From assembly GCA_030744915.1 (NCBI GenBank), contig JASLPO010000019.1:28410-92409 (forward strand): a stretch of 64,000 bases of DNA, given 5' to 3'. The first letter of the stretch is position 1, and each line of letters begins with the position of its first letter. Below are positions 30,956-53,729 of this stretch, one piece after another. The notes under the pieces were generated by a model. The model searched no databases, was not told the origin of the DNA, and saw only the letters and a program-made list of their open reading frames with translations. Source of the stretch: Gammaproteobacteria bacterium. Its GTDB lineage: Bacteria; Pseudomonadota; Gammaproteobacteria; Pseudomonadales; Pseudohongiellaceae. The translations under genes were made by a program, and so were the position numbers.

Positions 30956-31077
30956 CGCTTTGACCTAAGCGGAACGCGAGCGTTTTATCAGCGAGCTGGG
31001 TAGTCCTCTCTGGCTCGAGGTCAGTGATCTGACGAACTTCAACGGAGTAACTACGAAGCAGGATAGTATGGTGCCCA
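30956..31077 (-). repeat. distal copy of a ~122-nt structured element ending in a tRNA-Leu 3'-end mimic (tgggcacca)
   Basis: Aligns at about 85% identity with 31170-31292. It contains nested palindromes (ccgctt..aagcgg, gctc..gagc). Confidence 0.8.
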
Positions 31078-31169: not shown

Positions 31170-31292
31170 AGCTTTGAGCTAAGCGGAACGCGAGCGCTTT
31201 ACCAGCGAGCTGGATTAGTACTCTCCGGCTCGAGGTCAGTGAGCTACCAACAGTCAACGGAGTTACTACGAAGCAGGATGAGATGGTGCCCA
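31170..31292 (-). repeat. proximal copy of the ~122-nt element, overlapping the last 9 nt of tRNA-Leu
   Basis: Hand alignment with 30956-31077. The adjacent sequence gcttagcgctttcaaagcgcagctttgagctaagc forms nested hairpins. Confidence 0.8.
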
Positions 31293-31370
31293 GAAGAGGA
31301 CTTGAACCTCCACGACCTTTCGATCACTAACACCTGAAGCTAGCGCGTCTACCAATTCCGCCACCTGGGC
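31284..31370 (-). tRNA. tRNA-Leu (anticodon CAG), type II with long variable arm
   Basis: The reverse complement GCCCAGGTGGCGGAATTGGTAGACGCGCTAGCTTCAGGTGTTAGTGATCGAAAGGTCGTGGAGGTTCAAGTCCTCTTCTGGGCACCA was folded by hand. It has a 7-bp acceptor stem, anticodon loop TTCAGGT, T-loop TTCAAGT and an encoded CCA. Confidence 0.93.
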
Positions 31371-40439: not shown

Positions 40440-41813
40440 ATGGCAAAAACCAAGACAGCATTTGTTTGTACGGACTGCGGCGCTGAACATGGCCAGTGGC
40501 AGGGGCAGTGTGTCGCCTGTAAAGCCTGGAATACACTCTCCCAGCTCAATTTGGGCGCCAGCAGTTCACCGGCGACCAAGGCGGATTTTCGCAAGCCCGG
40601 TTATTCCGGCGAGCAATCTAATGTACAGAATCTGTCGGACATCGATCTGCAAGCCCTGCCCCGCTATCCCAGCAGTATCGGTGAATTGGACAGGGTGCTG
40701 GGTGGAGGGCTGGTGCCTGGGTCGGTGGTACTCATTGGCGGCAATCCGGGTGCCGGTAAGAGTACTCTGCTACTGCAGGTCATGTGTCAGCTCGCTCACA
40801 CGGGTAAACCCGCACTGTATGTCACCGGCGAGGAATCCCTGCAACAGGTTGGCATGCGGGCCAGGCGCTTGGGTCTTCCCGAAGCCAAGTTGCAGATGTT
40901 GGCGGAAACCAATGTCGAACAGATTGTTCAGGCCGCCCAACAGCATGCACCGGAACTGCTTGTAGTCGATTCCATACAGGTCATGCACAGTGCCGACGTG
41001 GCTTCGGCGCCAGGCAGCGTGTCCCAGGTGCGCGAATGCGCCGCTTACCTGATCCAATATGCCAAGCAGACCAACACCGTATTGTTCCTGGTAGGGCACG
41101 TGACCAAGGAAGGCAACCTGGCCGGGCCCAAGGTGCTGGAACACATGATCGATTGTTTCATCATGCTGGAGGGTGGCGACGATAATAAGTACCGCATCCT
41201 GCGCGGCTTGAAGAATCGCTTCGGCGCTGTTAATGAGCTGGGTGTCTTCGCCATGACCGAACAGGGGCTGAAGGAAGTCAAAAATCCCTCGGCGATATTT
41301 CTCGCCCGGTCAGAAGAAGACGCGCCCGGCTCGCTGGTCATGGTGCTCTGGGAAGGAACGCGCCCGCTACTGGTGGAGATTCAGGCACTGGTGGATAACA
41401 GCCCGCTGGGTAATCCTCGCCGTGTGGCCGTGGGTCTGGAACAGAATCGGCTGGCCATGCTGCTGGCGGTGTTGCATCGACACGGTGGGCTCTACATGGC
41501 TGACCAGGACGTGTTCGTCAATGTGGTCGGTGGCGTGAAAGTCAGCGAGACCAGCGCCGATCTGGCACTGCTGTTAGCCATCGTGTCGAGTTTTCGCGAT
41601 CGGCCGTTGCCAAGAGACCTGGTGGTCTTCGGTGAAGTAGGACTGGCCGGCGAGATTCGACCGGTACCGGGAGGACAGGAGCGCTTGCAGGAGGCAGTCA
41701 AACATGGGTTCACAAGGGCAATCGTTCCAAAAGCCAACGCGCCAAAGAAAGCAATTAAGGGTATTGAGGTTGTTGCCGTTAGCAAAATCGTCCAGGCGCT
41801 TGAAGCGATCTAA
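40440..41813 (+). CDS. radA: DNA repair protein RadA/Sms
   Basis: Zinc finger CTDCGAEHGQWQGQCVACKAWNT, Walker A GNPGAGKST, KNRFG motif and a Lon-like C-terminal domain. Confidence 0.97.
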   Translation: MAKTKTAFVCTDCGAEHGQWQGQCVACKAWNTLSQLNLGASSSPATKADFRKPGYSGEQSNVQNLSDIDLQALPRYPSSIGELDRVLGGGLVPGSVVLIGGNPGAGKSTLLLQVMCQLAHTGKPALYVTGEESLQQVGMRARRLGLPEAKLQMLAETNVEQIVQAAQQHAPELLVVDSIQVMHSADVASAPGSVSQVRECAAYLIQYAKQTNTVLFLVGHVTKEGNLAGPKVLEHMIDCFIMLEGGDDNKYRILRGLKNRFGAVNELGVFAMTEQGLKEVKNPSAIFLARSEEDAPGSLVMVLWEGTRPLLVEIQALVDNSPLGNPRRVAVGLEQNRLAMLLAVLHRHGGLYMADQDVFVNVVGGVKVSETSADLALLLAIVSSFRDRPLPRDLVVFGEVGLAGEIRPVPGGQERLQEAVKHGFTRAIVPKANAPKKAIKGIEVVAVSKIVQALEAI

Positions 41814-41854
41814 CAAAGGGGTATTACGGTAAAGAATTGCTCCAGGGATTAACA

Positions 41855-41936
41855 GGGTCAGGTCCTTCATGTTAGCAGATGGTCGTGTTGAAGCGTGATG
41901 ACGTGATAACAAGAAAGACTTGGCTCCCCCAGTGCC
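41855..41936 (+). repeat. left copy of ~82-bp direct repeat flanking the repeat-protein cassette
   Basis: gggtcaggtccttcatgttagcagatggtcgtgttgaagcgtgatgacgtgataacaagaaagacttggctcccccagtgcc aligns at about 80% identity with 45315-45397. It contains an internal hairpin gttagc...g(c/a)taac. Confidence 0.8.
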
Positions 41937-42317
41937 GTGTCCCCTACTTAGACCCCATTTTTTAATCACCGCAGTACTATTGTGAACTTCTTATCAACAT
42001 TGAATATTGATTCTGGATATTTACAATATGATAGATTATAGATATTACAGACCTTGGATGGTCTGAATATGTCGAGCGTTGCACTTTGCGCGCTGTTTGT
42101 ACGACTGGAAGAATTCTTATGCTCTTCAAAACAACGATCAATTAAACAACAATTCTGTTTGGTGAAAATACAAACTGTAGTTTTAGACACTAGCTCCAAT
42201 AAAGGCTGCATCCCATGGAACATTCAAATCTCCACCGATTACTTAGCTCACTGGTATTCATCTTCGTAGTTTTAGCGGCCTATGCGCCTGCACCATCATA
42301 CGCACAAACTCCTCCTC

Positions 42318-42590
42318 CCGGCGGGGATCCCTGTGCCACCGATCCCTTGAGTCAGGCATGCATTGATTCTATGAGTGGTGGCGGTGATCCAGATCCTGGT
42401 AGTGGTGACCCCGGTGGCGCTGATCCCTGTGCCACCGATCCCATGAGTCAGGCATGCATTGATTCCATGAGTGGTGGCGGTGATCCAGATCCTGGTAGTG
42501 GTGACCCCGGGGCCATGATCCCTGTGCCGCCGATCCCATGAGTCAGGAATGCCTTGATTCCAGTGGTGGAAGTGGCGATCCCAACACTCT
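42318..42590 (+). repeat. 96-bp tandem repeat (2 full units plus a diverged third) encoding DPCATDP(L/M)SQACIDSMSGGGDPDPGSGDPGG
   Basis: The gatccctgtgcc motif occurs at 42326, 42422 and 42517, giving periods of 96 then 95 nt. Confidence 0.9.
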
Positions 42591-42692
42591 CTGCGATGCT
42601 GGTAATCCTGATCCAATCTGCCAGGGTGTGGGATTCGACAATCCCTGCGAAGATGATCCGGCTTCGTGTGCGGCACCTCCTGATGTCGGTGA

Positions 42693-44075
42693 TTTGGATG
42701 GTCTCGGAGCCGATGACATTCAGAATCTGGATCCTACTGCCGTCTACGGTTTTACCGACGATCACGTGAGCGGTCTGGATCCCAGCCAGTTGGGTGATTT
42801 CACCCCTGATCAGCTCGGTAATCTGCCACCGGATGCGCTGGACAGCTTGAGCCCGGATCAACCTCAAAATATTGATCCTGCGGGATTCGGTCAGTTCTCA
42901 GACGATCAGGTTGGCGCATTGGACCCGACTGCTGTTGGCGCTTTCAGTGCCGACCAGTTAGGCGGCCTGCCAGCAGGTGCGTTTGGCGGCTTCGATGCCA
43001 CCCAGATGGATGCGCTTGATCCCACGGCCCTGGGCGGCTTATCCAGTGATCAGGTCGGTGGTTTAGATCCCACAGCAGTCGGCTCTCTGGATGCAGATCA
43101 GCTCGGCGCATTGCCAACTGATGCTATTGGCGGCTTCAGCGCTTCCCAGGCAGGTGCTCTTGACCCAACAGCCCTGGGCGGCCTGTCCAGTGATCAGCTC
43201 GGCGGCCTTGATCCCACGGCAGTTGGTGCGTTGGATGCCGACCAGTTAGGTGCATTGCCAACCGATGCATTTGGCGGCTTCAGCGCCGACCAGGCGGGCG
43301 CACTCGATCCAGCAGCTCTGGGTGGATTGGGCAGCGATCAAGTTGATAATCTTGATCCAACAGCGGTAGGCGCATTCGATGCGAACCAACTCGGTGCATT
43401 GCCGGATGATGCATTTGGAAGCCTTGATCCCTTGCAAGTTGACGCATTGGGTAGCGCTGCCCTGGGAGGCGTTAGTGCCGATCAGATCGGCAGCCTTGAT
43501 TCCACAGCCGTGGCAGCATTCGATGCCGATCAGTTGGGGGCTTAGCGGCCGATGCATTGGGCGGTTTCAATTCCAATCAGATCGATGCACTCGATCCAAC
43601 CGCCCTGGGTGGTCTATCCGATGATCAAGTTGGTGGCATTGATCCCAACGCAGTGGGTGCCCTTGACGCGCAACAACTAGGCAGCGTGCCCGCGGATGCC
43701 TTTGATGGTTTCGACAGTACTCAGGTCAGCAACCTGAATCCGACGGCACTCGGAGGGATATCGGGTGACCAACTTGGCAATATGGATCCGACAGCCATGC
43801 CGGGCTTCGATGACCAGCAGGTTGGTGCATTGCCATTGGATGCAGTAGATGATTGAAGCGCTGCTCAAATACAACAACTGCCTGCAGATGCTGTAGGTGG
43901 TTTTACTCCTGAACAGTTTGATTGGCTACCGACCGATACTGTGGGTGCTTTGGTTGGAGACCAAATTGGCGGACTTGATAGCCAGGTGCTCGGTGCCCTC
44001 GATCCAACCGACATTGGAAAACTTGACACCGAAGAAATTCAGAACATGGACGGCGACGACTTCGGTCGCTTTGTG
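42693..44075 (+). repeat. array of ~28 degenerate 48-bp (16-aa) coding repeats, partly organised as 144-bp super-repeats
   Basis: Consensus [DP]-P-T-A-[LV]-G-[GA]-[LF]-[SD]-x-D-Q-[LV]-G-[GA]-L. For example, 43013-43156 and 43157-43300 are about 80% identical at the DNA level. Confidence 0.9.
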
Positions 44076-45314
44076 ACTAATCTGGATCCCAGCACGGTAG
44101 ACCCGTCAGATGTTGATGGCTTGCTACCCCAGGGCTGGGAGATTGATGCAGGCACCGGTGATCTGACACCGCCTGAGGGTCCGATTGCACTCAAGGCTGT
44201 TGCACCGGCAGAAGAAGAGGGTGTGACTTTACCGGAAATACCAGACCTCAGTGCCAGTTTTGGACTGGGCGGAACGGGTAGCGGTGGTTCCGTACTCAAT
44301 GATATGGAAGAAGCCCTCGATGACAGTGTGCCCGGCTTCGACATGACCCAGCAGTCTAATGGCTTCATTACTCTCGCCGCTGAAGGTTCAGACCCCAATC
44401 AGCCTGCGGCTGCCCTGCTTCCAGATGCAGGCAGCGTCACTCAAGCCCCCGAGGGCGCGCCGGCTGGAATTAGCTTCGATGAAGGTGGCACGCCAATCCT
44501 CACTACAGATGACGGTAAACAGGTGACCTTGCAAGCTACACTCGCCAATCCCGAAGAAGTGAAAGAAGTGCTGCCAGGGGCTGAAGTCGAGGTTAACGAC
44601 GACGGTGGTGTAAAGCTGGAACTTCCTGATACGGCCAGCGGCAATGGCCTGACCGGCGGTCAGACACTGGTAGGCACACCGAGTCCTTTTGTTGAGGAAT
44701 CGGATAAGGCTCCGGGTGTTTACCGCGAAGAGGATGCAAACGGTGACGAGACAGTAACCGTTGTCAATCAGGACGGTACCGCCCAGACATTGACGCCGAC
44801 TATTAATAACGCCGACGAGTTCATCAATACAGCCCAGCAGATTGATGGCGTGGATTCTGTGACTAAAAATTTCGATGGCAGCCTGACTGTGGAGACGGGC
44901 GGTACAACATTAACGGTTAAGCCCAGTTTGGAGCTAGTCGATACTTCATCGAATACTGACAAGCCTGAATCAGGTATCAGCGTGGATCAAGACAGCGGCA
45001 GTCTTACCTGGACCGATGACAATGGTCTGACCCAAACTTTTAAAGTGGTCGACTCAGACAATAACGTCGTGGCAGGCAATGATCTGGACACCTCTAGTGT
45101 CCATGGCTCAGAAGCTGATTGCGCAGCGGGTTTTAGCTTAGATTCAACAACGCTGGAGTGTGTGGCAGATAGTAGTCCCCAGTAGTCAAGCTCTGACAAT
45201 GCGAGTGATTCATTTGCCGCATCGATGGAGACGGAATACCCAATCAAGACGCCATGGATGGTGATGGAGTAGGGGATGAGTGCCGCAAAAAAAATGGGAT
45301 CAAAAATCCCTGGG

Positions 45315-45397
45315 GGGTCAAATCTTTTATGTTAGCGAATGGTCGAGCTGAAGCGTGATGAGATGCTAACAAGAAAGACCTGGCCCCTTCAGTGGCC
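45315..45397 (+). repeat. right copy of ~82-bp direct repeat
   Basis: ggggtcaaatcttttatgttagcgaatggtcgagctgaagcgtgatgagatgctaacaagaaagacctggccccttcagtggcc lies between the repeat-protein stop and the stop of the convergent monooxygenase gene. Confidence 0.8.
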
Positions 45398-45404
45398 CCA
45401 AGAT

Positions 45405-46613
45405 TTAACGCTGCAACAAAGTCGGCAATATTAAATTAAGCTGATTTTTTGTCATCAGCTTCTGGGTAATTGCCCATTTGACCGGCGGCAGATTGTTGCT
45501 CAGGCGTAACGCGGCCTTGCGCAACAACGTGGCAGGCAGGCTGTCGTTGGTAAACAGTGACACGATGGAATTGGTGCCGTGGTAAAGCGGGCGCGTGGAC
45601 AGCATATGTTTTCGTTGATAGCGGGACAGGGCGTCCGGATGCCAGAAATCCCGACCCTGAGATAGCGAGTTCAAAATTTCGCCGGCAAGTAAATCCTGGC
45701 CGCTTAAGCCGAGATTAAATCCATGGGCAGTAACAGGGTGCATGCCAACAGCTGCATCACCGACCAAAGCAAACCGTCGTGCAAAAAACCGATTGGCGTG
45801 CACACCGACCAGTGGATAGGGATACCGCTTGCCTTTTTGTTGCATCGCACCGAGTCGTCCATTCAGGCGTTCCTCGATATCCTGGTTATAGGCAGCGCGT
45901 TTCATATCGAGAATCGCCTCAGCCTGGTCGGTGGCGGCGGTGACGACGATGGAGGACATGTCGCCGGGCATGGGCAAGACGGCGAGGGTACGCCCGTAGT
46001 GAAAACATTCGAAAGCGGTCTGCTGGTGGCTCAGTGCATGTTTCATCCAGCAGACAATCGCGGTTCGGCCAAAGTCGTATAAGTCCGATGAAATACCCAT
46101 CTGTCGGCGTGACGCGGAAAAGCGTGTATCGGCAGCCACGATCATCGAGCTTCGTATGCTGTCACCCGAGGCCAGGGATACTGTAGCACCGCTGTCGTCG
46201 CTGGAAACCTGGCTAACCTCGGTAGCATCGATCAGCGTCGCATTTTCGAGTGTATCGAATTCTTTGAAAATTGCTTTGCGGATTCGGAAGTTGGATATCA
46301 GGAAGCCGAGTGCATCGGTATCGTCTGAGGGAGTGTTGAAATCGAGCGTGTAGGGTGAATCACCATCAATCACCTCGGCCCTTTGAATCGGAGATATCTG
46401 GCGTGAATCGATGTGCTGCCAGCTGCCCTGTTGCTGCATCAGCTTGCGTGACAAATGGGTGAGGGCAATGTCGCGGCCATCCGTCGGCGGGTCGGCCAGT
46501 AATTCACGGCTCTGTTTCTCGATAACTGCTATGTTCAGCCCGCTGTCACGCAAAGAACAGGCAAAGCTTAAACCGCTGGGTCCCGCGCCGATGATGGCAA
46601 GATCGTAATCCAT
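45405..46613 (-). CDS. FAD-dependent monooxygenase, UbiH/UbiF/VisC/COQ6 family
   Basis: MDYDLAIIGAGPSGLSFA dinucleotide-binding N-terminus and a late GDAAVGMHPVTAHGFNLG motif. 402 aa. Confidence 0.85.
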   Translation of the reverse strand: MDYDLAIIGAGPSGLSFACSLRDSGLNIAVIEKQSRELLADPPTDGRDIALTHLSRKLMQQQGSWQHIDSRQISPIQRAEVIDGDSPYTLDFNTPSDDTDALGFLISNFRIRKAIFKEFDTLENATLIDATEVSQVSSDDSGATVSLASGDSIRSSMIVAADTRFSASRRQMGISSDLYDFGRTAIVCWMKHALSHQQTAFECFHYGRTLAVLPMPGDMSSIVVTAATDQAEAILDMKRAAYNQDIEERLNGRLGAMQQKGKRYPYPLVGVHANRFFARRFALVGDAAVGMHPVTAHGFNLGLSGQDLLAGEILNSLSQGRDFWHPDALSRYQRKHMLSTRPLYHGTNSIVSLFTNDSLPATLLRKAALRLSNNLPPVKWAITQKLMTKNQLNLILPTLLQR

Positions 46614-50213: not shown

Positions 50214-51197
50214 TCACTGGCGTCTCTCACCACCGTATAGCATTTCCATACTCGCGCCCGCCGCATTGTAGTACATGCCCGGACCATCTCGCTCACCCCT
50301 TACCCAAGGACCGACATAGCGATCTCCATTATTGAAGAAATAGGTTCCGTAGCCGTGTATACGGTCATTACTGAAGCCACCTTCGAAACGATTGCCATTG
50401 GCATAGAAAAATGTACCCTGGCCGTTCATTTGATCGGATTGCCACTGTCCTTCGTAACGGTCGCCGTTGGCCCAGTACTTGGTGCCATTGCCATGTTGTT
50501 CGCCGTTTCGCCACATGCTGGTGTAGCGGTTCTCGTTGGCCCAGGTGTAGGTGCCCTGGCCGTTGCGTTCGTTATTTTGAAATTCTCCCTCGTAACGATT
50601 GCCATTTGCCCAGTTAAAGGTGCCCTGACCATTCTGTAAGCCATCGCGCCACTGGCCCTCGTAACGATCGCCATTACTGAAAGAGTAAACCCCATGACCA
50701 TTGTGCTGATCGGCTTCCCAGTTGCCTTCGTAGACATCACCGTTTAGAAAGGTATAGCTACCTTGCCTGTATCTCCGGTCGTTTCGAAATTGCCCGACAA
50801 AGCGGTCACCATTGAAACGAGTCAGTACTCCCTGCCCGTTACGTTGACCATTGCGAAATTGCCCTTCGAATCGGTCTCCATTTGCAAAGCTGTAGATGCC
50901 GCGGCCGTTCTTCTGATCATTGCTGAATGAGCCGTCATAACGATCGCCGTTGCTGAGAATGAGCGTACCCCGACCCTGGAAGACATTATTCTGGCATTGG
51001 TCTTCATAGCGATTACCGTCAGACCACCGATAAACACCTGAACCACTGACACAACTACCACGTAACCAGCCATTGTCGGCGGCTTCTGAAGGAATAGAAA
51101 TTATCAGCACGAGGAAAGTCAGCAGGGATGTGCCAATCAGCAGCAATCGATCATTCATTTTGGATTCATCGTTGTTGGCATGGTTTGTTCGATCCAT
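50214..51197 (-). CDS. secreted/membrane-anchored MORN repeat protein (about 12 repeats)
   Basis: Repeated Y-x-G-x-W/F-x-x-G-x-x-x-G-x-G (for example GDRYEGQWRDGLQNGQGTF) throughout, with an N-terminal hydrophobic segment. The start is either 51197 or 51158. Confidence 0.8.
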   Translation of the reverse strand: MDRTNHANNDESKMNDRLLLIGTSLLTFLVLIISIPSEAADNGWLRGSCVSGSGVYRWSDGNRYEDQCQNNVFQGRGTLILSNGDRYDGSFSNDQKNGRGIYSFANGDRFEGQFRNGQRNGQGVLTRFNGDRFVGQFRNDRRYRQGSYTFLNGDVYEGNWEADQHNGHGVYSFSNGDRYEGQWRDGLQNGQGTFNWANGNRYEGEFQNNERNGQGTYTWANENRYTSMWRNGEQHGNGTKYWANGDRYEGQWQSDQMNGQGTFFYANGNRFEGGFSNDRIHGYGTYFFNNGDRYVGPWVRGERDGPGMYYNAAGASMEMLYGGERRQ

Positions 51198-51314: not shown

Positions 51315-51854
51315 TCAGCGTAATGTACCTGCACCGCTGAAACTGTCGGCAAATAGCACCCGCTTACTGATTCGCCAGCCATCCTGGGTCTTGCGCCAGG
51401 TGTTTCGGTATATGCCAGAACTGGCGATAGTGGCAGTTCGGTCGTTGGCGGTCTGGTGAGTTATCAGCGCCATATTCTCTGTGACTGCGGTTTGTCCAGT
51501 CAGTTCCAGAAACACCAGACCCGAGAAGTGATGGCGGGTCTGGCGGTCCGCCAGTCTGCCTTCATGAGACTGCCGAGCGTATTGGTAGATCGCTGGTTTT
51601 CCGACGACGCGGGAATTTTCTACCGGGGCGCCCTCTCGCCAGCGCTCCATGATGCCATCCTCAGTAAACAGCTCCGCAAACCCAGTGGCATCTTTCGAAT
51701 CCCAGCGGTAGGAATACTCGGCGAGCATTTCGGCGATAGCAATTCGGTCGCTGAATGTGGATAGATCATCCGCTGTCACAGAAATTGGATGGCTTAAAAG
51801 CAATGCCATCAGCAAGGTATAATGAGCACGCTGAAGTAGTGGAGTGTTCGCCAT
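51315..51854 (-). CDS. secreted NTF2-fold (SnoaL-like) protein, paralogue 1
   Basis: 179 aa with a signal peptide. It is about 80% identical at the protein level to the product of 53036-53563 (shared HEGRLADRQTRHHFSGLVFLEL). Confidence 0.7.
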   Translation of the reverse strand: MANTPLLQRAHYTLLMALLLSHPISVTADDLSTFSDRIAIAEMLAEYSYRWDSKDATGFAELFTEDGIMERWREGAPVENSRVVGKPAIYQYARQSHEGRLADRQTRHHFSGLVFLELTGQTAVTENMALITHQTANDRTATIASSGIYRNTWRKTQDGWRISKRVLFADSFSGAGTLR

Positions 51855-53035: not shown

Positions 53036-53563
53036 TCAATTACCACTGAAGCTGTCAGAAAACAGCACCCGTTTGCTGATGCGCCAACCATCAGCCGTCT
53101 TCTGCCTGCTGTTCCGATAAATCCCCGAACTGGCGATAAAAGCGGCTCGATCGTTTACAGTTTGATGTGTGATGAGGGCCATATTCTCAGTAACCGCCGT
53201 CTGATCTGTGAGCTCCAGAAACACCAACCCAGAGAAGTGATGACGAGTCTGGCGGTCTGCCAATCGGCCTTCGTGAGATTGTTTGGCATACCGATGGATG
53301 GCCTCTTTCCCGGCCACCCGGGAGTTCTGTACCAAGTTTCCTTCGCGCCAGCGCTCCATCACAGCTTCTTCAGTAAACAAATCAGCAAATCCTGCCGAAT
53401 CTTTAGAATCCCACCGGTAAGAATACCGTGTGAGCATTTCAGCAATGGCCAGCCGCTCGTTTACCTTGTTAAGCTCAGTAGCTAACGTAAATGACTGGAA
53501 AGAGAGTGCTGTAAGTAGTAATAGACCTTGAATAGAAACTCTATAGATAATTTTCTTCACCAT
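53036..53563 (-). CDS. secreted NTF2-fold (SnoaL-like) protein, paralogue 2
   Basis: Trimmed to the ATG at 53561-53563, which has a gagggg SD. See 51315-51854. Confidence 0.7.
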   Translation of the reverse strand: MVKKIIYRVSIQGLLLLTALSFQSFTLATELNKVNERLAIAEMLTRYSYRWDSKDSAGFADLFTEEAVMERWREGNLVQNSRVAGKEAIHRYAKQSHEGRLADRQTRHHFSGLVFLELTDQTAVTENMALITHQTVNDRAAFIASSGIYRNSRQKTADGWRISKRVLFSDSFSGN

Positions 53564-53729
53564 GCTAACCCCCCTCTTGGCAAGGAGTTCAAGCATAGCA
53601 AGCATGTTGAATTATCTAAACCGACAGAGTTGCGATCGCCGGCTCGGTTTTGGCTGCTCCGGATGAGGGGCCAAGCATGGAGATCTGCCCGATTAACGCC
53701 AAAGCCATCATCCCCAGTGGTGTTAAATA

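What the first reader, a model, noticed from the sequence alone, without database searches (positions are those of the whole stretch)
42215..45185. Large secreted protein built from an unrecognised 16-residue acidic repeat (about 28 copies) plus Cys-paired N-terminal repeats
Conceptual repair gives about 990 aa in four parts. First is a signal peptide. Second are three 32-aa repeats, each with two Cys (DPCATDPMSQACIDSMSGGGDPDPGSGDPGG). Third are about 450 aa of the period-16 unit DPTA(L/V)GG(L/F)SxDQ(L/V)GGL, often in 48-aa triplets ending ..LPTDAFGGFSADQAGAL. Fourth is a ~400-aa Thr/Asp/Gly-rich domain ending with a Cys pair. The regular Leu/Gly/Asp spacing suggests a solenoid. It is shorter than LRRs (20-29 aa) and unlike RTX, pentapeptide or VCBS repeats as I know them. 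Units differ mostly at synonymous sites, implying past selection on the protein.
Basis: partly seen in the sequence, partly recalled or inferred. Interest (0 to 1): 0.75.

Follow-up and report, generated by a model that had tools for sequence, protein, structure and literature searches.

The report
Broken gene for ALTTAQ-repeat secreted protein
This is a dead copy (two frameshifts and one stop codon) of a gene for a secreted, very acidic rod-shaped repeat protein; its repeat is already catalogued as Pfam's ALTTAQ repeat, so it is a decayed member of a known but functionally unstudied family.

Summary
Window 42215-45185 (+) encodes, after conceptual repair, a 990-aa protein with a Sec signal peptide, Cys-pair repeats, a long acidic repeat array and a C-terminal domain.

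The "unrecognised 16-mer" is a recognised repeat: Pfam PF20080 ALTTAQ_rpt scores 117 bits against a cut-off of 26.4, in 13 stretches.
- The true period is 8 residues, with 59 units in perfect register; 16 and 48 are super-periods.
- AlphaFold2 predicts one 4-6-residue helix per unit, an alpha-solenoid. The Asp/Ser residues sit at helix N-caps, which explains them without a Ca ladder.

The gene is a real pseudogene, not a sequencing error.
- Two 1-nt deletions and one TGA are identical in five independent metagenome assemblies.
- All three ORF1 variants on record carry the first frameshift.

The closest genome (about 91% nt identity) lacks the whole 3.56-kb segment, which is bounded by two copies of an 80-nt hairpin. 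Intact relatives of 550-990 aa exist at other loci, one probably in the same genome.

The C-terminal 309-aa beta-rich domain is conserved in at least 250 protein clusters. It has no Pfam, NCBIfam, PDB or BFVD match.

The ancestral function, a surface or secreted binding stalk, is inferred only.

The parts
41841..45409 (.). About 3.56-kb segment present here but absent from the closest related genome (L010, MAG NP21). Its two ends (41841-41853 and 45397-45409) both resemble the single L010 sequence CCCAGGGTCTAAC, so they may be a 13-bp target duplication.
   Evidence: blastn: window 41836 maps to L010 9402 and window 45397 maps to L010 9407. Junctions were read. None of the 80 related radA loci holds a homologue.
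41855..41934 (+). Left copy of an 80-nt hairpin-forming repeat that bounds the insert.
   Evidence: Direct-repeat family D5, 81% identity, spacing 3460. It folds into the same long hairpin as the right copy (-28.6 kcal/mol, z -1.2). No Rfam family matches.
42000..42027 (+). Sigma-70-like promoter match (TTGAAT-16-TACAAT), about 190 nt upstream of the ATG.
   Evidence: Consensus scan only, 9 of 12 matches. Function not shown.
42215..45185 (+). Pseudogene of a 990-aa secreted ALTTAQ-repeat protein. It is called as four ORFs of 108, 335, 99 and 414 aa.
42215..42304 (+). Sec-type signal peptide (aa 1-30, probable cleavage SYA|QT).
   Evidence: Read from the sequence. Intact relatives have the same ...A-Q-T N-termini.
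42305..42693 (+). Acidic Pro/Gly/Asp linker with 10 Cys (aa 31-160). It includes three 32-aa two-Cys repeats (DNA copies at 42320-42605).
   Evidence: TRF period 96; family D4. The same DPCxxDPMSxxC motif occurs in P0007 and Cys-pair repeats occur in P0170.
42509..42512 (+). Lesion 1: 1-nt deletion in or next to a G-run (GACCCCGGGGCC; the sister repeat reads GACCCCGGTGGC).
   Evidence: copy spacing 96 then 95. The frameshift tail GAMIPVPPIP is present in all three ORF1 variants on record.
42694..44108 (+). Array of 59 units of 8 aa (aa 161-632). Consensus is [LVIF]-G-[GA]-[LF]-[DSP]-[PA]-[DT]-[QA], alternating hGxLDPTA and hGGfSxDQ. The last few units are a degenerate cap that is conserved in relatives.
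   Evidence: Pfam PF20080, 117 bits; register and logo; autocorrelation; AF2 helices every 8 residues.
43536..43545 (+). Lesion 2: 1-nt deletion (in the G5 run or in TT), which creates a TAG at 43543-43545.
   Evidence: The repaired frame aligns without gaps to P0170.
43854..43856 (+). Lesion 3: in-frame TGA at a hydrophobic core position of the 8-mer. It aligns with Met in P0170.
   Evidence: TGA is an ordinary stop in this genome, ending 11 of 35 long ORFs.
44127..45053 (+). Conserved C-terminal domain (aa 639-947, 309 aa). It is beta-rich with three helices and matches no family model or known fold.
   Evidence: Exhaustive phmmer: 250 clusters at E<=1e-3 and 175 at <=1e-10. Alignments A1 and A4. 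AF2 pLDDT 79, pTM 0.76. No PDB or BFVD fold match. No Pfam or NCBIfam match.
45054..45185 (+). 43-aa acidic tail with a Cys pair, plus the stop codon. It is predicted disordered and is not conserved in relatives.
45296..45310 (-). Terminator-like hairpin plus T-run on the minus strand, positioned to serve the convergent ubiH-like gene.
   Evidence: Consensus scan.
45315..45394 (+). Right copy of the 80-nt hairpin repeat.
   Evidence: Family D5. Fold -40 kcal/mol, z -4.5, 0 of 200 shuffles as stable. No Rfam family matches.

Best explanation
The locus is a pseudogene: a decayed copy of a gene from a family of Sec-exported, strongly acidic proteins of marine Gammaproteobacteria. The source here is a Pseudohongiellaceae/OM182-type organism.

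The ancestral protein had four parts:
- a signal peptide;
- a Pro/Asp-rich linker stapled by short Cys-Cys loops;
- a long alpha-solenoid built from 59 eight-residue ALTTAQ-type units (Pfam PF20080);
- a conserved beta-rich C-terminal domain of about 300 aa.

In each 8-mer the two hydrophobic positions would pack the core. Asp, Ser or Thr caps the N-terminus of a helix of about 1.5 turns, often with Pro as its first residue. Gly-Gly or Gly-Ala makes the tight turn to the next unit. Together the units form a rod or superhelix.

By inference, such a protein serves as a non-enzymatic extracellular binding or spacer module, with the solenoid presenting or extending the C-terminal domain.

In this genome the gene arrived as, or survives as, a 3.56-kb lineage-specific segment between radA and a ubiH-like gene, bounded by two hairpin repeats. 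Two 1-nt deletions and one nonsense mutation have since inactivated it. Translation from the only start that carries a signal peptide stops after 108 aa, so no full-length product can be made. A probably intact paralogue (P0003 type) elsewhere in the same genome would make the loss tolerable.
For: Shown:
- Pfam ALTTAQ_rpt, 117.1 bits against a 26.4 cut-off, 13 stretches.
- An 8-aa period in perfect register over 59 units. The same 8/16-aa pattern occurs in canonical ALTTAQ arrays of unrelated proteins.
- AF2 predicts a 4-6-residue helix every 8 residues, starting at the Pro that follows Asp, with pLDDT about 90.
- Three lesions.
- 100.000% identical DNA over 6174 bp, with the same four ORFs, in five independent assemblies.
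- The first frameshift is kept in all three ORF1 variants.
- TGA is a normal stop in this genome.
- Intact relatives of 548-1631 aa at 30-41% identity. A 987-aa relative has the same four-part order and aligns without gaps across lesions 2 and 3.
- The C-terminal domain occurs in 250 clusters and is nearly always terminal: 51 of 64 full-length hits have 30 or fewer residues after it.
- The window copy keeps every invariant residue of the C-terminal domain.
- dN/dS is about 0.1 between array units.
- The segment is absent from the closest genome and from 80 related radA loci.
- P0003 accession numbers lie about 900-1150 away from those of the window's ORF1 in two MAG submissions.

Inferred:
- The binding or stalk function. 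It rests on the lack of invariant catalytic-type residues in the C-terminal domain; the invariant residues are Gly, Pro, Gln and Trp.
- It also rests on the partner domains found in other proteins that carry the C-terminal domain: LRR, fn3, BNR, Calx-beta, PA14, FG-GAP and InlB B-repeat.
Against: - No experiment or conserved gene neighbourhood supports any specific function. The contexts of five relatives all differ.
- The solenoid model comes from a single sequence, and its superhelical geometry could not be inspected.
- Foldseek gives only loose matches (mesothelin, designed armadillo; TM about 0.27).
- The C-terminal domain shows no decay, so inactivation may be recent. Residual function of fragments cannot be formally excluded.
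- Whether the segment was inserted here or deleted in the sister lineage is not settled.
- Assigning P0003 to the same genome rests only on the closeness of accession numbers and on shared samples.
Confidence: 0.8

Rival explanations
1. The gene is intact in the organism, and the three interruptions are sequencing or assembly errors, for example homopolymer miscalls.
For: Both frameshifts lie in or next to short G-runs. The rest of the sequence, including all conserved C-terminal-domain residues, looks undamaged.
Against: - Five assemblies from different projects and samples (JGI x2, ENA x3 including Tara) are 100% identical over 6174 bp and give the same four ORFs.
- NCBI MAG annotations also call separate ORFs.
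- ORF1 variants that differ elsewhere still carry the first frameshift.
- The third lesion is a substitution, not an indel.
Confidence: 0.03
2. The gene is expressed through programmed recoding (two -1 frameshifts plus TGA read-through), or it is a phase-variable contingency gene switched by G-run slippage.
For: The indels are at G4/G5 runs, a substrate for slipped-strand mispairing.
Against: - Neither site has an X_XXY_YYZ slippery heptamer (read).
- Three independent events would all have to be bypassed.
- TGA is a standard stop in this genome.
- The runs are shorter than typical phase-variable tracts.
- No in-frame length variant was found among the alleles on record.
Confidence: 0.03
3. 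The array is a new kind of repeat: a short LRR-like or Ca-binding Asp-ladder solenoid, distinct from described families.
For: - phmmer aligns the array to LGR4 LRRs at a 24-aa period (E about 1e-6), and DQLGALPxDAFGGF resembles NxLxxLPxxxFxxL.
- The protein is extremely acidic, with 170 Asp+Glu against 13 Lys+Arg.
- There is a faint lanmodulin similarity.
- Three of 80 proteins that carry the C-terminal domain also carry true LRR domains; their position in the protein was not checked.
Against: - The Pfam ALTTAQ_rpt hit is far above its cut-off.
- LRR_8 scores 11.3 bits against 27.
- No beta-strand is predicted in the array, and the LxxLxL strand motif is missing.
- Lanmodulin scores 12.6 bits against 135.
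- The Asp/Ser positions are explained as helix N-caps.
Confidence: 0.07
4. The fragments are still useful. For example, the 108-aa secreted Cys-loop peptide (ORF1) or the 414-aa ORF4 (C-terminal domain) may work as stand-alone products.
For: - ORF1 keeps its start, a promoter-like site and its signal peptide.
- ORF4 keeps all conserved residues of the C-terminal domain.
- The lesions are fixed across oceans.
Against: - ORF2, ORF3 and ORF4 lack signal peptides, although the family is exported.
- ORF4 starts at a GTG inside the array; no ribosome-binding site was looked for.
- The short gene calls that carry the C-terminal domain all begin inside repeat arrays, so they look like truncated calls rather than stand-alone proteins.
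- The ORF1 tail after the frameshift is out-of-frame sequence.
Confidence: 0.07

Closest known systems
Pfam PF20080 ALTTAQ_rpt proteins (ALTTAQ repeat; no described function found in the paper library)
   Same: - Scores far above the family cut-off.
- Has the same 8-residue unit (hydrophobic, S/T/D, x, x, Q/A, hydrophobic, x, x). The 16-aa A/Q alternation seen here also occurs in P0004.
- Occurs in secreted multidomain proteins.
   Different: - This array is a Gly-rich, Asp-rich variant (hGG/hGA turns, DP starts).
- It is unusually long, with 59 units.
- The gene is inactivated.
Unnamed family: signal peptide, Cys/Pro linker, ALTTAQ array and about 300-aa C-terminal domain (e.g. P0170 at 987 aa; P0003 = HAJ76185.1 at 661 aa)
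   Same: - The same order of four parts.
- A conserved array-to-domain junction (...NLGGL..V...L....L..LN..E.Q.M...DF...LTNLD...I.P..V..LLPxGW).
- 30-42% identity.
   Different: - The relatives are intact and lie at other genomic sites.
- The window copy has about 18 more 8-mers than P0170, an extra Cys-pair tail and three disabling mutations.
HeliScrew4 (PDB 9ZEM), a designed 8-mer alpha-helical screw (bioRxiv 10.64898/2025.12.04.691947)
   Same: - An 8-residue unit with one short helix.
- Pro at N1 and S/T/D as N-cap.
- Two core hydrophobic positions.
- phmmer E 5e-10 in the same register.
   Different: - It is a design, so the likeness is analogy rather than ancestry.
- The superhelical geometry of the natural array was not measurable here.
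- 9ZEM was not among the top 50 Foldseek hits.
Leucine-rich repeats (e.g. the LGR4 ectodomain)
   Same: - Solenoid logic.
- The 24-aa super-period aligns with the NxLxxLPxxxFxxL half of LRRs.
- True LRR domains occur in 3 of 80 proteins that carry the same C-terminal domain.
   Different: - No beta-strand and no LxxLxL motif.
- Pfam LRR models score below their cut-offs.
- The unit is 8 aa, not 20-29 aa.
Mesothelin and designed armadillo alpha-solenoids
   Same: Best Foldseek PDB matches: superhelices of short helices (E 3e-5 to 8e-4).
   Different: TM-scores of only 0.24-0.27 with rmsd 11 A, much longer repeat units and no sequence relation.

Membership tests
Pfam PF20080 ALTTAQ_rpt | Whole-protein score at or above Pfam's gathering cut-off (26.4 bits) | tested here: met
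   117.1 bits, E 2.5e-34, 13 stretches
Pfam PF20080 ALTTAQ_rpt | Tandem 8-residue units of the type hydrophobic-[S/T/D]-x-x-[Q/A]-hydrophobic-x-x, as in canonical arrays | tested here: met
   59 units in register, with autocorrelation peaks only at multiples of 8. The same pattern occurs in P0014, P0004 and P0013.
Unnamed exoprotein family: signal peptide, ALTTAQ array, C-terminal domain | Homologous C-terminal domain of about 300 aa placed after the array | tested here: met
   phmmer finds 250 clusters. Alignments A1 and A4 keep all invariant residues. The domain is terminal in 51 of 64 full-length hits.
Unnamed exoprotein family: signal peptide, ALTTAQ array, C-terminal domain | One uninterrupted open reading frame (a functional member) | tested here: not met
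   Two frameshifts and one TGA, fixed in all assemblies
Leucine-rich repeat | An LRR Pfam model above its cut-off, and a beta-strand LxxLxLxxN in each unit of 20-29 aa | tested here: not met
   LRR_8 scores 11.3 bits against 27. AF2 predicts no strands in the array. The motif is absent. The only similarity is a weak 24-aa-period match to LGR4.
RTX / EF-hand-like Ca-binding repeats (HemolysinCabind, lanmodulin) | A profile match to a Ca-binding repeat family | tested here: not met
   No HemolysinCabind hit. Lanmodulin scores 12.6 bits against 135. Ca binding itself cannot be tested with these tools.
8-mer alpha-helical screw fold (HeliScrew, 9ZEM); a works-like comparison, not ancestry | One short helix per 8 residues, with an S/T/D N-cap and Pro at N1 | tested here: met
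   DSSP helices every 8 residues, starting at the Pro after Asp. The logo is and the criteria come from the paper.
8-mer alpha-helical screw fold (HeliScrew, 9ZEM); a works-like comparison, not ancestry | A tight right-handed superhelix with 2.5-4 units per turn | not testable with these tools
Foldseek returned mesothelin and armadillo matches at TM about 0.27, and 9ZEM was not in the top 50.
Autotransporter (T5SS) C-terminal barrel, considered for the C-terminal domain | An autotransporter beta-barrel profile match, or about 12 long strands | tested here: not met
   No Pfam hit. The model has about 22 short strands plus 3 helices and no barrel-like PDB match.

The most novel reading that the evidence does not exclude
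The family of proteins with an ALTTAQ array plus this C-terminal domain, of which this locus is a dead member, may be an uncharacterised class of exoproteins of marine Gammaproteobacteria. Its array would be the widespread natural form of the 8-mer alpha-helical screw, a fold that a 2025 preprint reported as almost absent from the PDB. Its 300-aa C-terminal domain would be a new fold with a function of its own.
Probability: 0.3. Interest if true: 0.5.

Novelty: new member of a known kind. Interest (0 to 1): 0.25.

Why it matters
For this locus, little: it is a dead gene whose repeat is already in Pfam.

Three side results have some value.
- The ALTTAQ repeat, which has a Pfam entry but no literature in the library searched, is predicted with high confidence to be an 8-residue helix-cap-turn solenoid. 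That links a large natural family to the designed "helical screw" fold, which its authors described as structural dark matter.
- The 300-aa C-terminal domain is found in at least 250 clusters (50% identity) and has no family model or fold match. It is a candidate for a new domain family.
- The locus is a clean example of gain and decay of a surface-protein gene. It lies in a lineage-specific, hairpin-bounded insertion and is fixed with three lesions in a population whose sequence is identical across several metagenome projects.

Tried and rejected
- Word-indexed search with the 414-aa ORF4 found only itself. The exhaustive phmmer was needed to find relatives.
- The GTDB genome scan with ORF4 found nothing.
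- The JGI metagenome scan with ORF4 found nothing, and so did the scan with the hairpin core pattern. That collection evidently lacks this organism.
- The profile search with alignment A4 in the word-indexed database returned only 5 proteins and gave no taxonomy.
- tblastn of the C-terminal domain against plasmids and phages found no match.
- Rfam gave only sub-threshold noise on both hairpin regions.
- Foldseek of the C-terminal-domain model against PDB and BFVD gave no hit with TM above 0.14.
- The PDB profile search gave only a summed weak match to one blade of the designed Pizza6 propellers, which is not convincing.
- No operon partner is shared among five intact relatives.
- An integron attC reading of the hairpins was considered and rejected. 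The GTTAGC...GCTAAC arms are in the wrong order for R''/R', and there is no integron context.
- Alternative genetic codes were rejected because TGA is a common stop here.
- The identity of PDB 7QLR, the natural helical screw cited by the preprint, could not be established.
Full report
**What is there.** ORF listing and three-frame translation show one long coding region on the + strand from 42215 to 45185. It is broken into four ORFs of 108, 335, 99 and 414 aa. Reading the DNA locates three lesions.
- One base is missing at the G-run 42509-42512. The sister repeat reads GACCCCGGTGGC where this copy reads GACCCCGGGGCC, and the three 96-nt repeat copies are spaced 96 and then 95 nt apart (family D4).
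- One base is missing within 43536-43543, which creates a TAG at 43543-43545.
- A TGA at 43854-43856 falls at a hydrophobic core position of the repeat.

Restoring the two bases gives a 990-codon frame. The repair is validated by an intact 987-aa homologue, P0170. It aligns at 42% identity over 642 residues and without gaps across lesions 2 and 3.

- The N-terminus is a typical Sec signal peptide (…LAAYAPAPSYA|QT).
- Next come 130 residues rich in Asp, Pro and Gly with 10 Cys. They include three 32-aa two-Cys repeats (TRF period 96, 94% matches).
- Residues 161-632 form the repeat array.
- The last 352 residues are non-repetitive and end in a Cys pair.
- The protein is extremely acidic, with 170 Asp+Glu against 13 Lys+Arg.
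Between the central 48-aa super-units pS is 0.6-0.8 (saturated), pN is 0.11-0.25 and dN/dS is about 0.1. The array is therefore old and was long kept by purifying selection.
- The first two Cys repeats differ at only 4 of 96 nt, so that duplication is recent.

**The repeat is not unrecognised.** hmmscan against Pfam gives PF20080 ALTTAQ_rpt at E 2.5e-34, with 117.1 bits against a curated cut-off of 26.4, in 13 stretches. All 13 relatives found with the repaired protein carry the same precomputed Pfam family (rescanned).

The real period is 8 residues. Identity autocorrelation peaks only at 8, 16, 24, 32, 40 and 48. The array parses into 59 consecutive 8-mers with no insertion or deletion. The unit consensus is [LVIF]-G-[GA]-[LF]-[DSP]-[PA]-[DT]-[QA], alternating between hGxLDPTA and hGGfSxDQ; this alternation produces the 16-mer. 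Canonical ALTTAQ arrays in unrelated proteins show the same 8/16 pattern, for example P0014 (LTPAQIDG LTPKQLSN) and P0004 (MPPAAFAAMKPxQMGQ).

Other repeat families fail.
- LRR_8 scores 11.3 bits against 27, and nothing matched RTX, pentapeptide or VCBS models.
- Lanmodulin scores 12.6 bits against 135.

**Structure.** Single-sequence AlphaFold2 of the 335-aa ORF gives pLDDT 85-93 over the array. It predicts a 4-6-residue helix every 8 residues and no strands. Each helix starts at the Pro that follows Asp, or at the residue after Ser/Thr. The acidic and hydroxyl residues therefore sit at N-cap positions and Pro at N1.

The best PDB sequence match is HeliScrew4 (9ZEM; E 5e-10, same register). 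It is a designed 8-mer "alpha-helical screw". The paper that describes it reports the same N-cap, Pro and hydrophobic-core logic, and notes only one natural example in the PDB. Because HeliScrew4 is a design, this is analogy and not ancestry.

Foldseek finds only loose alpha-solenoid matches (mesothelin, designed armadillo; TM about 0.27). I could not inspect the coordinates, so the superhelical geometry is untested.

phmmer also aligns the array with LGR4 LRRs at a 24-aa period. That similarity covers only the NxLxxLPxxxFxxL half of an LRR, and the beta-strand motif is absent.

The "Asp ladder for Ca" idea is neither needed nor supported, although Ca binding cannot be excluded by computation.

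**It is a real, fixed pseudogene.**
- The exact RadA protein of the window is found on 14 contigs.
- Five independent assemblies (two JGI, three ENA, one of them Tara) carry the same four ORFs. They are 100.000% identical to the window over 6174 bp.
- Three ORF1 variants are on record: the reference, one with a 32-aa unit fewer, and one with a Leu-to-Met change. All end in the same out-of-frame tail, GAMIPVPPIP.
- NCBI MAG annotation also has separate ORFs (QGG02_02510 and QGG02_02525).
- TGA ends 11 of 35 long ORFs in the window, so the code is standard.
- Neither frameshift site has a slippery heptamer.
- Only ORF1 has a signal peptide, so no exported full-length product can be made.

**Where it sits.** A scan of GTDB species representatives with RadA places the source in the Pseudohongiellaceae/OM182 group. 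The best match is MAG NP21 (L010), with 97% amino-acid and about 91% nucleotide identity.

In L010, radA is followed at once by the convergent ubiH-like gene, and window positions 41837-45396 have no counterpart. None of the 80 related loci has a homologue of any part of the protein near radA. More distant relatives go straight from radA to the MFS transporter gene.

The extra 3.56 kb is bounded by two direct copies of an 80-nt element with 81% identity (41855-41934 and 45315-45394). Both copies fold into the same long hairpin; the right copy reaches -40 kcal/mol with z -4.5. Both outer junctions resemble the single L010 sequence CCCAGGGTCTAAC, which suggests a target duplication.

If recombination between the two hairpins had deleted the segment, one hairpin copy would remain. 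L010 has none, so insertion in this lineage is the simpler reading. This is not proven.

**The family.** Intact relatives include P0003 (661 aa), P0006, P0007, P0012 and P0170 (987 aa). They share a signal peptide, a Pro/Asp/Cys linker, an ALTTAQ array, a conserved array cap and the C-terminal domain. P0007 even shares the DPCxxDPMSxxC motif.

P0003 has NCBI accession numbers 900-1150 away from those of the window's ORF1 in two MAG submissions, and it occurs in the same samples. It is therefore probably an intact paralogue in the same genome.

The gene neighbourhoods of five relatives differ.

**The C-terminal domain.**
- Exhaustive phmmer with the 352 C-terminal residues finds 250 clusters (50% identity) at E<=1e-3 and 175 at <=1e-10.
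- The domain is nearly always at the very end of the protein. The median is 5 residues after it, and 51 of 64 full-length hits have 30 or fewer.
- Among 80 carriers, 29 score for ALTTAQ. Others carry LRR, fn3, InlB B-repeat, BNR/sortilin, Calx-beta, RCC1, FG-GAP or PA14 domains.
- The invariant residues are Gly, Pro and Gln, with Trp nearly invariant. None is of a typical catalytic type.
- AF2 with 10 homologues gives pLDDT 79 and pTM 0.76, a beta-rich fold with three helices.
- There is no fold match in PDB or BFVD (TM 0.14 or less) and no Pfam or NCBIfam model.
- The only PDB profile hit is a weak summed match to one blade of the designed Pizza6 propellers.
- The window copy keeps all invariant residues, so inactivation is recent relative to the age of the family.

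**Mechanism, with its status.**
- Shown: family membership, the 8-mer architecture, the predicted helix-per-unit solenoid, pseudogene status, and the lineage-specific location.
- Inferred: the ancestral protein was exported by Sec, the Cys pairs form short disulfide loops outside the cytoplasm, and the solenoid is an acidic rod that presents or spaces a non-enzymatic binding or anchoring C-terminal domain. This fits the adhesin-type partner domains seen elsewhere.
- Unknown: the ligand, the cellular location, and any role of metal ions.

**Verdict.** This is a decayed member of a known, uncharacterised repeat family, so the novelty rating is "new member of a known kind" and interest is low. 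The parts worth further work lie at family level: the natural helical-screw fold and the C-terminal domain that has no family model. The locus itself is not one of them.

Noticed in passing
window 41855-41934 and 45315-45394: Two direct copies (81% identical) of an 80-nt element that folds into a long hairpin bound the 3.56-kb insert. Some of the differences between the copies preserve the predicted stem. No Rfam match was found, and there are no other copies in the window, in 80 related loci or in the JGI metagenome scan. It may be a MITE/REP-like element or the ends of a cassette.
   Followed up: partly
window 40440-46613 compared with L001-L005: 6174 bp are 100.000% identical in five assemblies from different projects and samples, including Tara. 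This points to a very clonal, widely recovered Pseudohongiellaceae/OM182 population.
   Followed up: partly
window 45405-46613 (- strand): The ubiH-like FAD monooxygenase gene is present only in the window and its closest relative, L010. More distant Pseudohongiellaceae go directly from radA to the MFS transporter, so this gene is a second, older lineage-specific gain at the same spot.
   Followed up: partly
window 30957-31077 and 31171-31292, beside tRNA-Leu(CAG) at 31284-31370 (-): A stretch of about 120 nt that includes the 3' end of the tRNA-Leu gene is duplicated 214-215 nt away (83-93% identity). It may be a decayed second tRNA copy or a remnant att site. ARAGORN calls only one tRNA.
   Followed up: no
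window 50311-50910, inside the ORF at 50214-51197 (-): Six copies of a 69-nt (23-aa) repeat lie within a 327-aa ORF. The period and the reverse-strand reading (…YWANGDRYEG…) look like MORN-type repeats. This was not checked against a profile.
   Followed up: no
window 51333-51632 and 53042-53341: Two stretches of 300 nt are 73% identical. They lie in the neighbouring minus-strand ORFs 51315-51854 and 53036-53605, which are therefore paralogous genes 1.7 kb apart.
   Followed up: no
L087 (PALS01000048.1): A contig labelled "Methanobacteriota archaeon isolate SAT38" carries a gammaproteobacterial radA locus that is 83% identical in protein to the window's RadA. It is probably a mis-binned contig in that MAG.
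   Followed up: no
L008 8989-10248; L091 1971-3272 and 8373-9869: Intact family members sit next to secreted-type hydrolase genes. A beta-lactamase-family gene starts 3 nt after P0003, and PAF-AH/PETase-like hydrolase genes lie on both sides of P0006, though not immediately adjacent. This may be coincidence, because the other contexts differ.
   Followed up: no
P0002 and P0005 (JGI annotation): JGI names these ALTTAQ/C-terminal-domain proteins "outer membrane lipoprotein SlyB". Nothing found here supports that name; the Pfam scan of P0002 found only ALTTAQ_rpt above its cut-off.
   Followed up: partly
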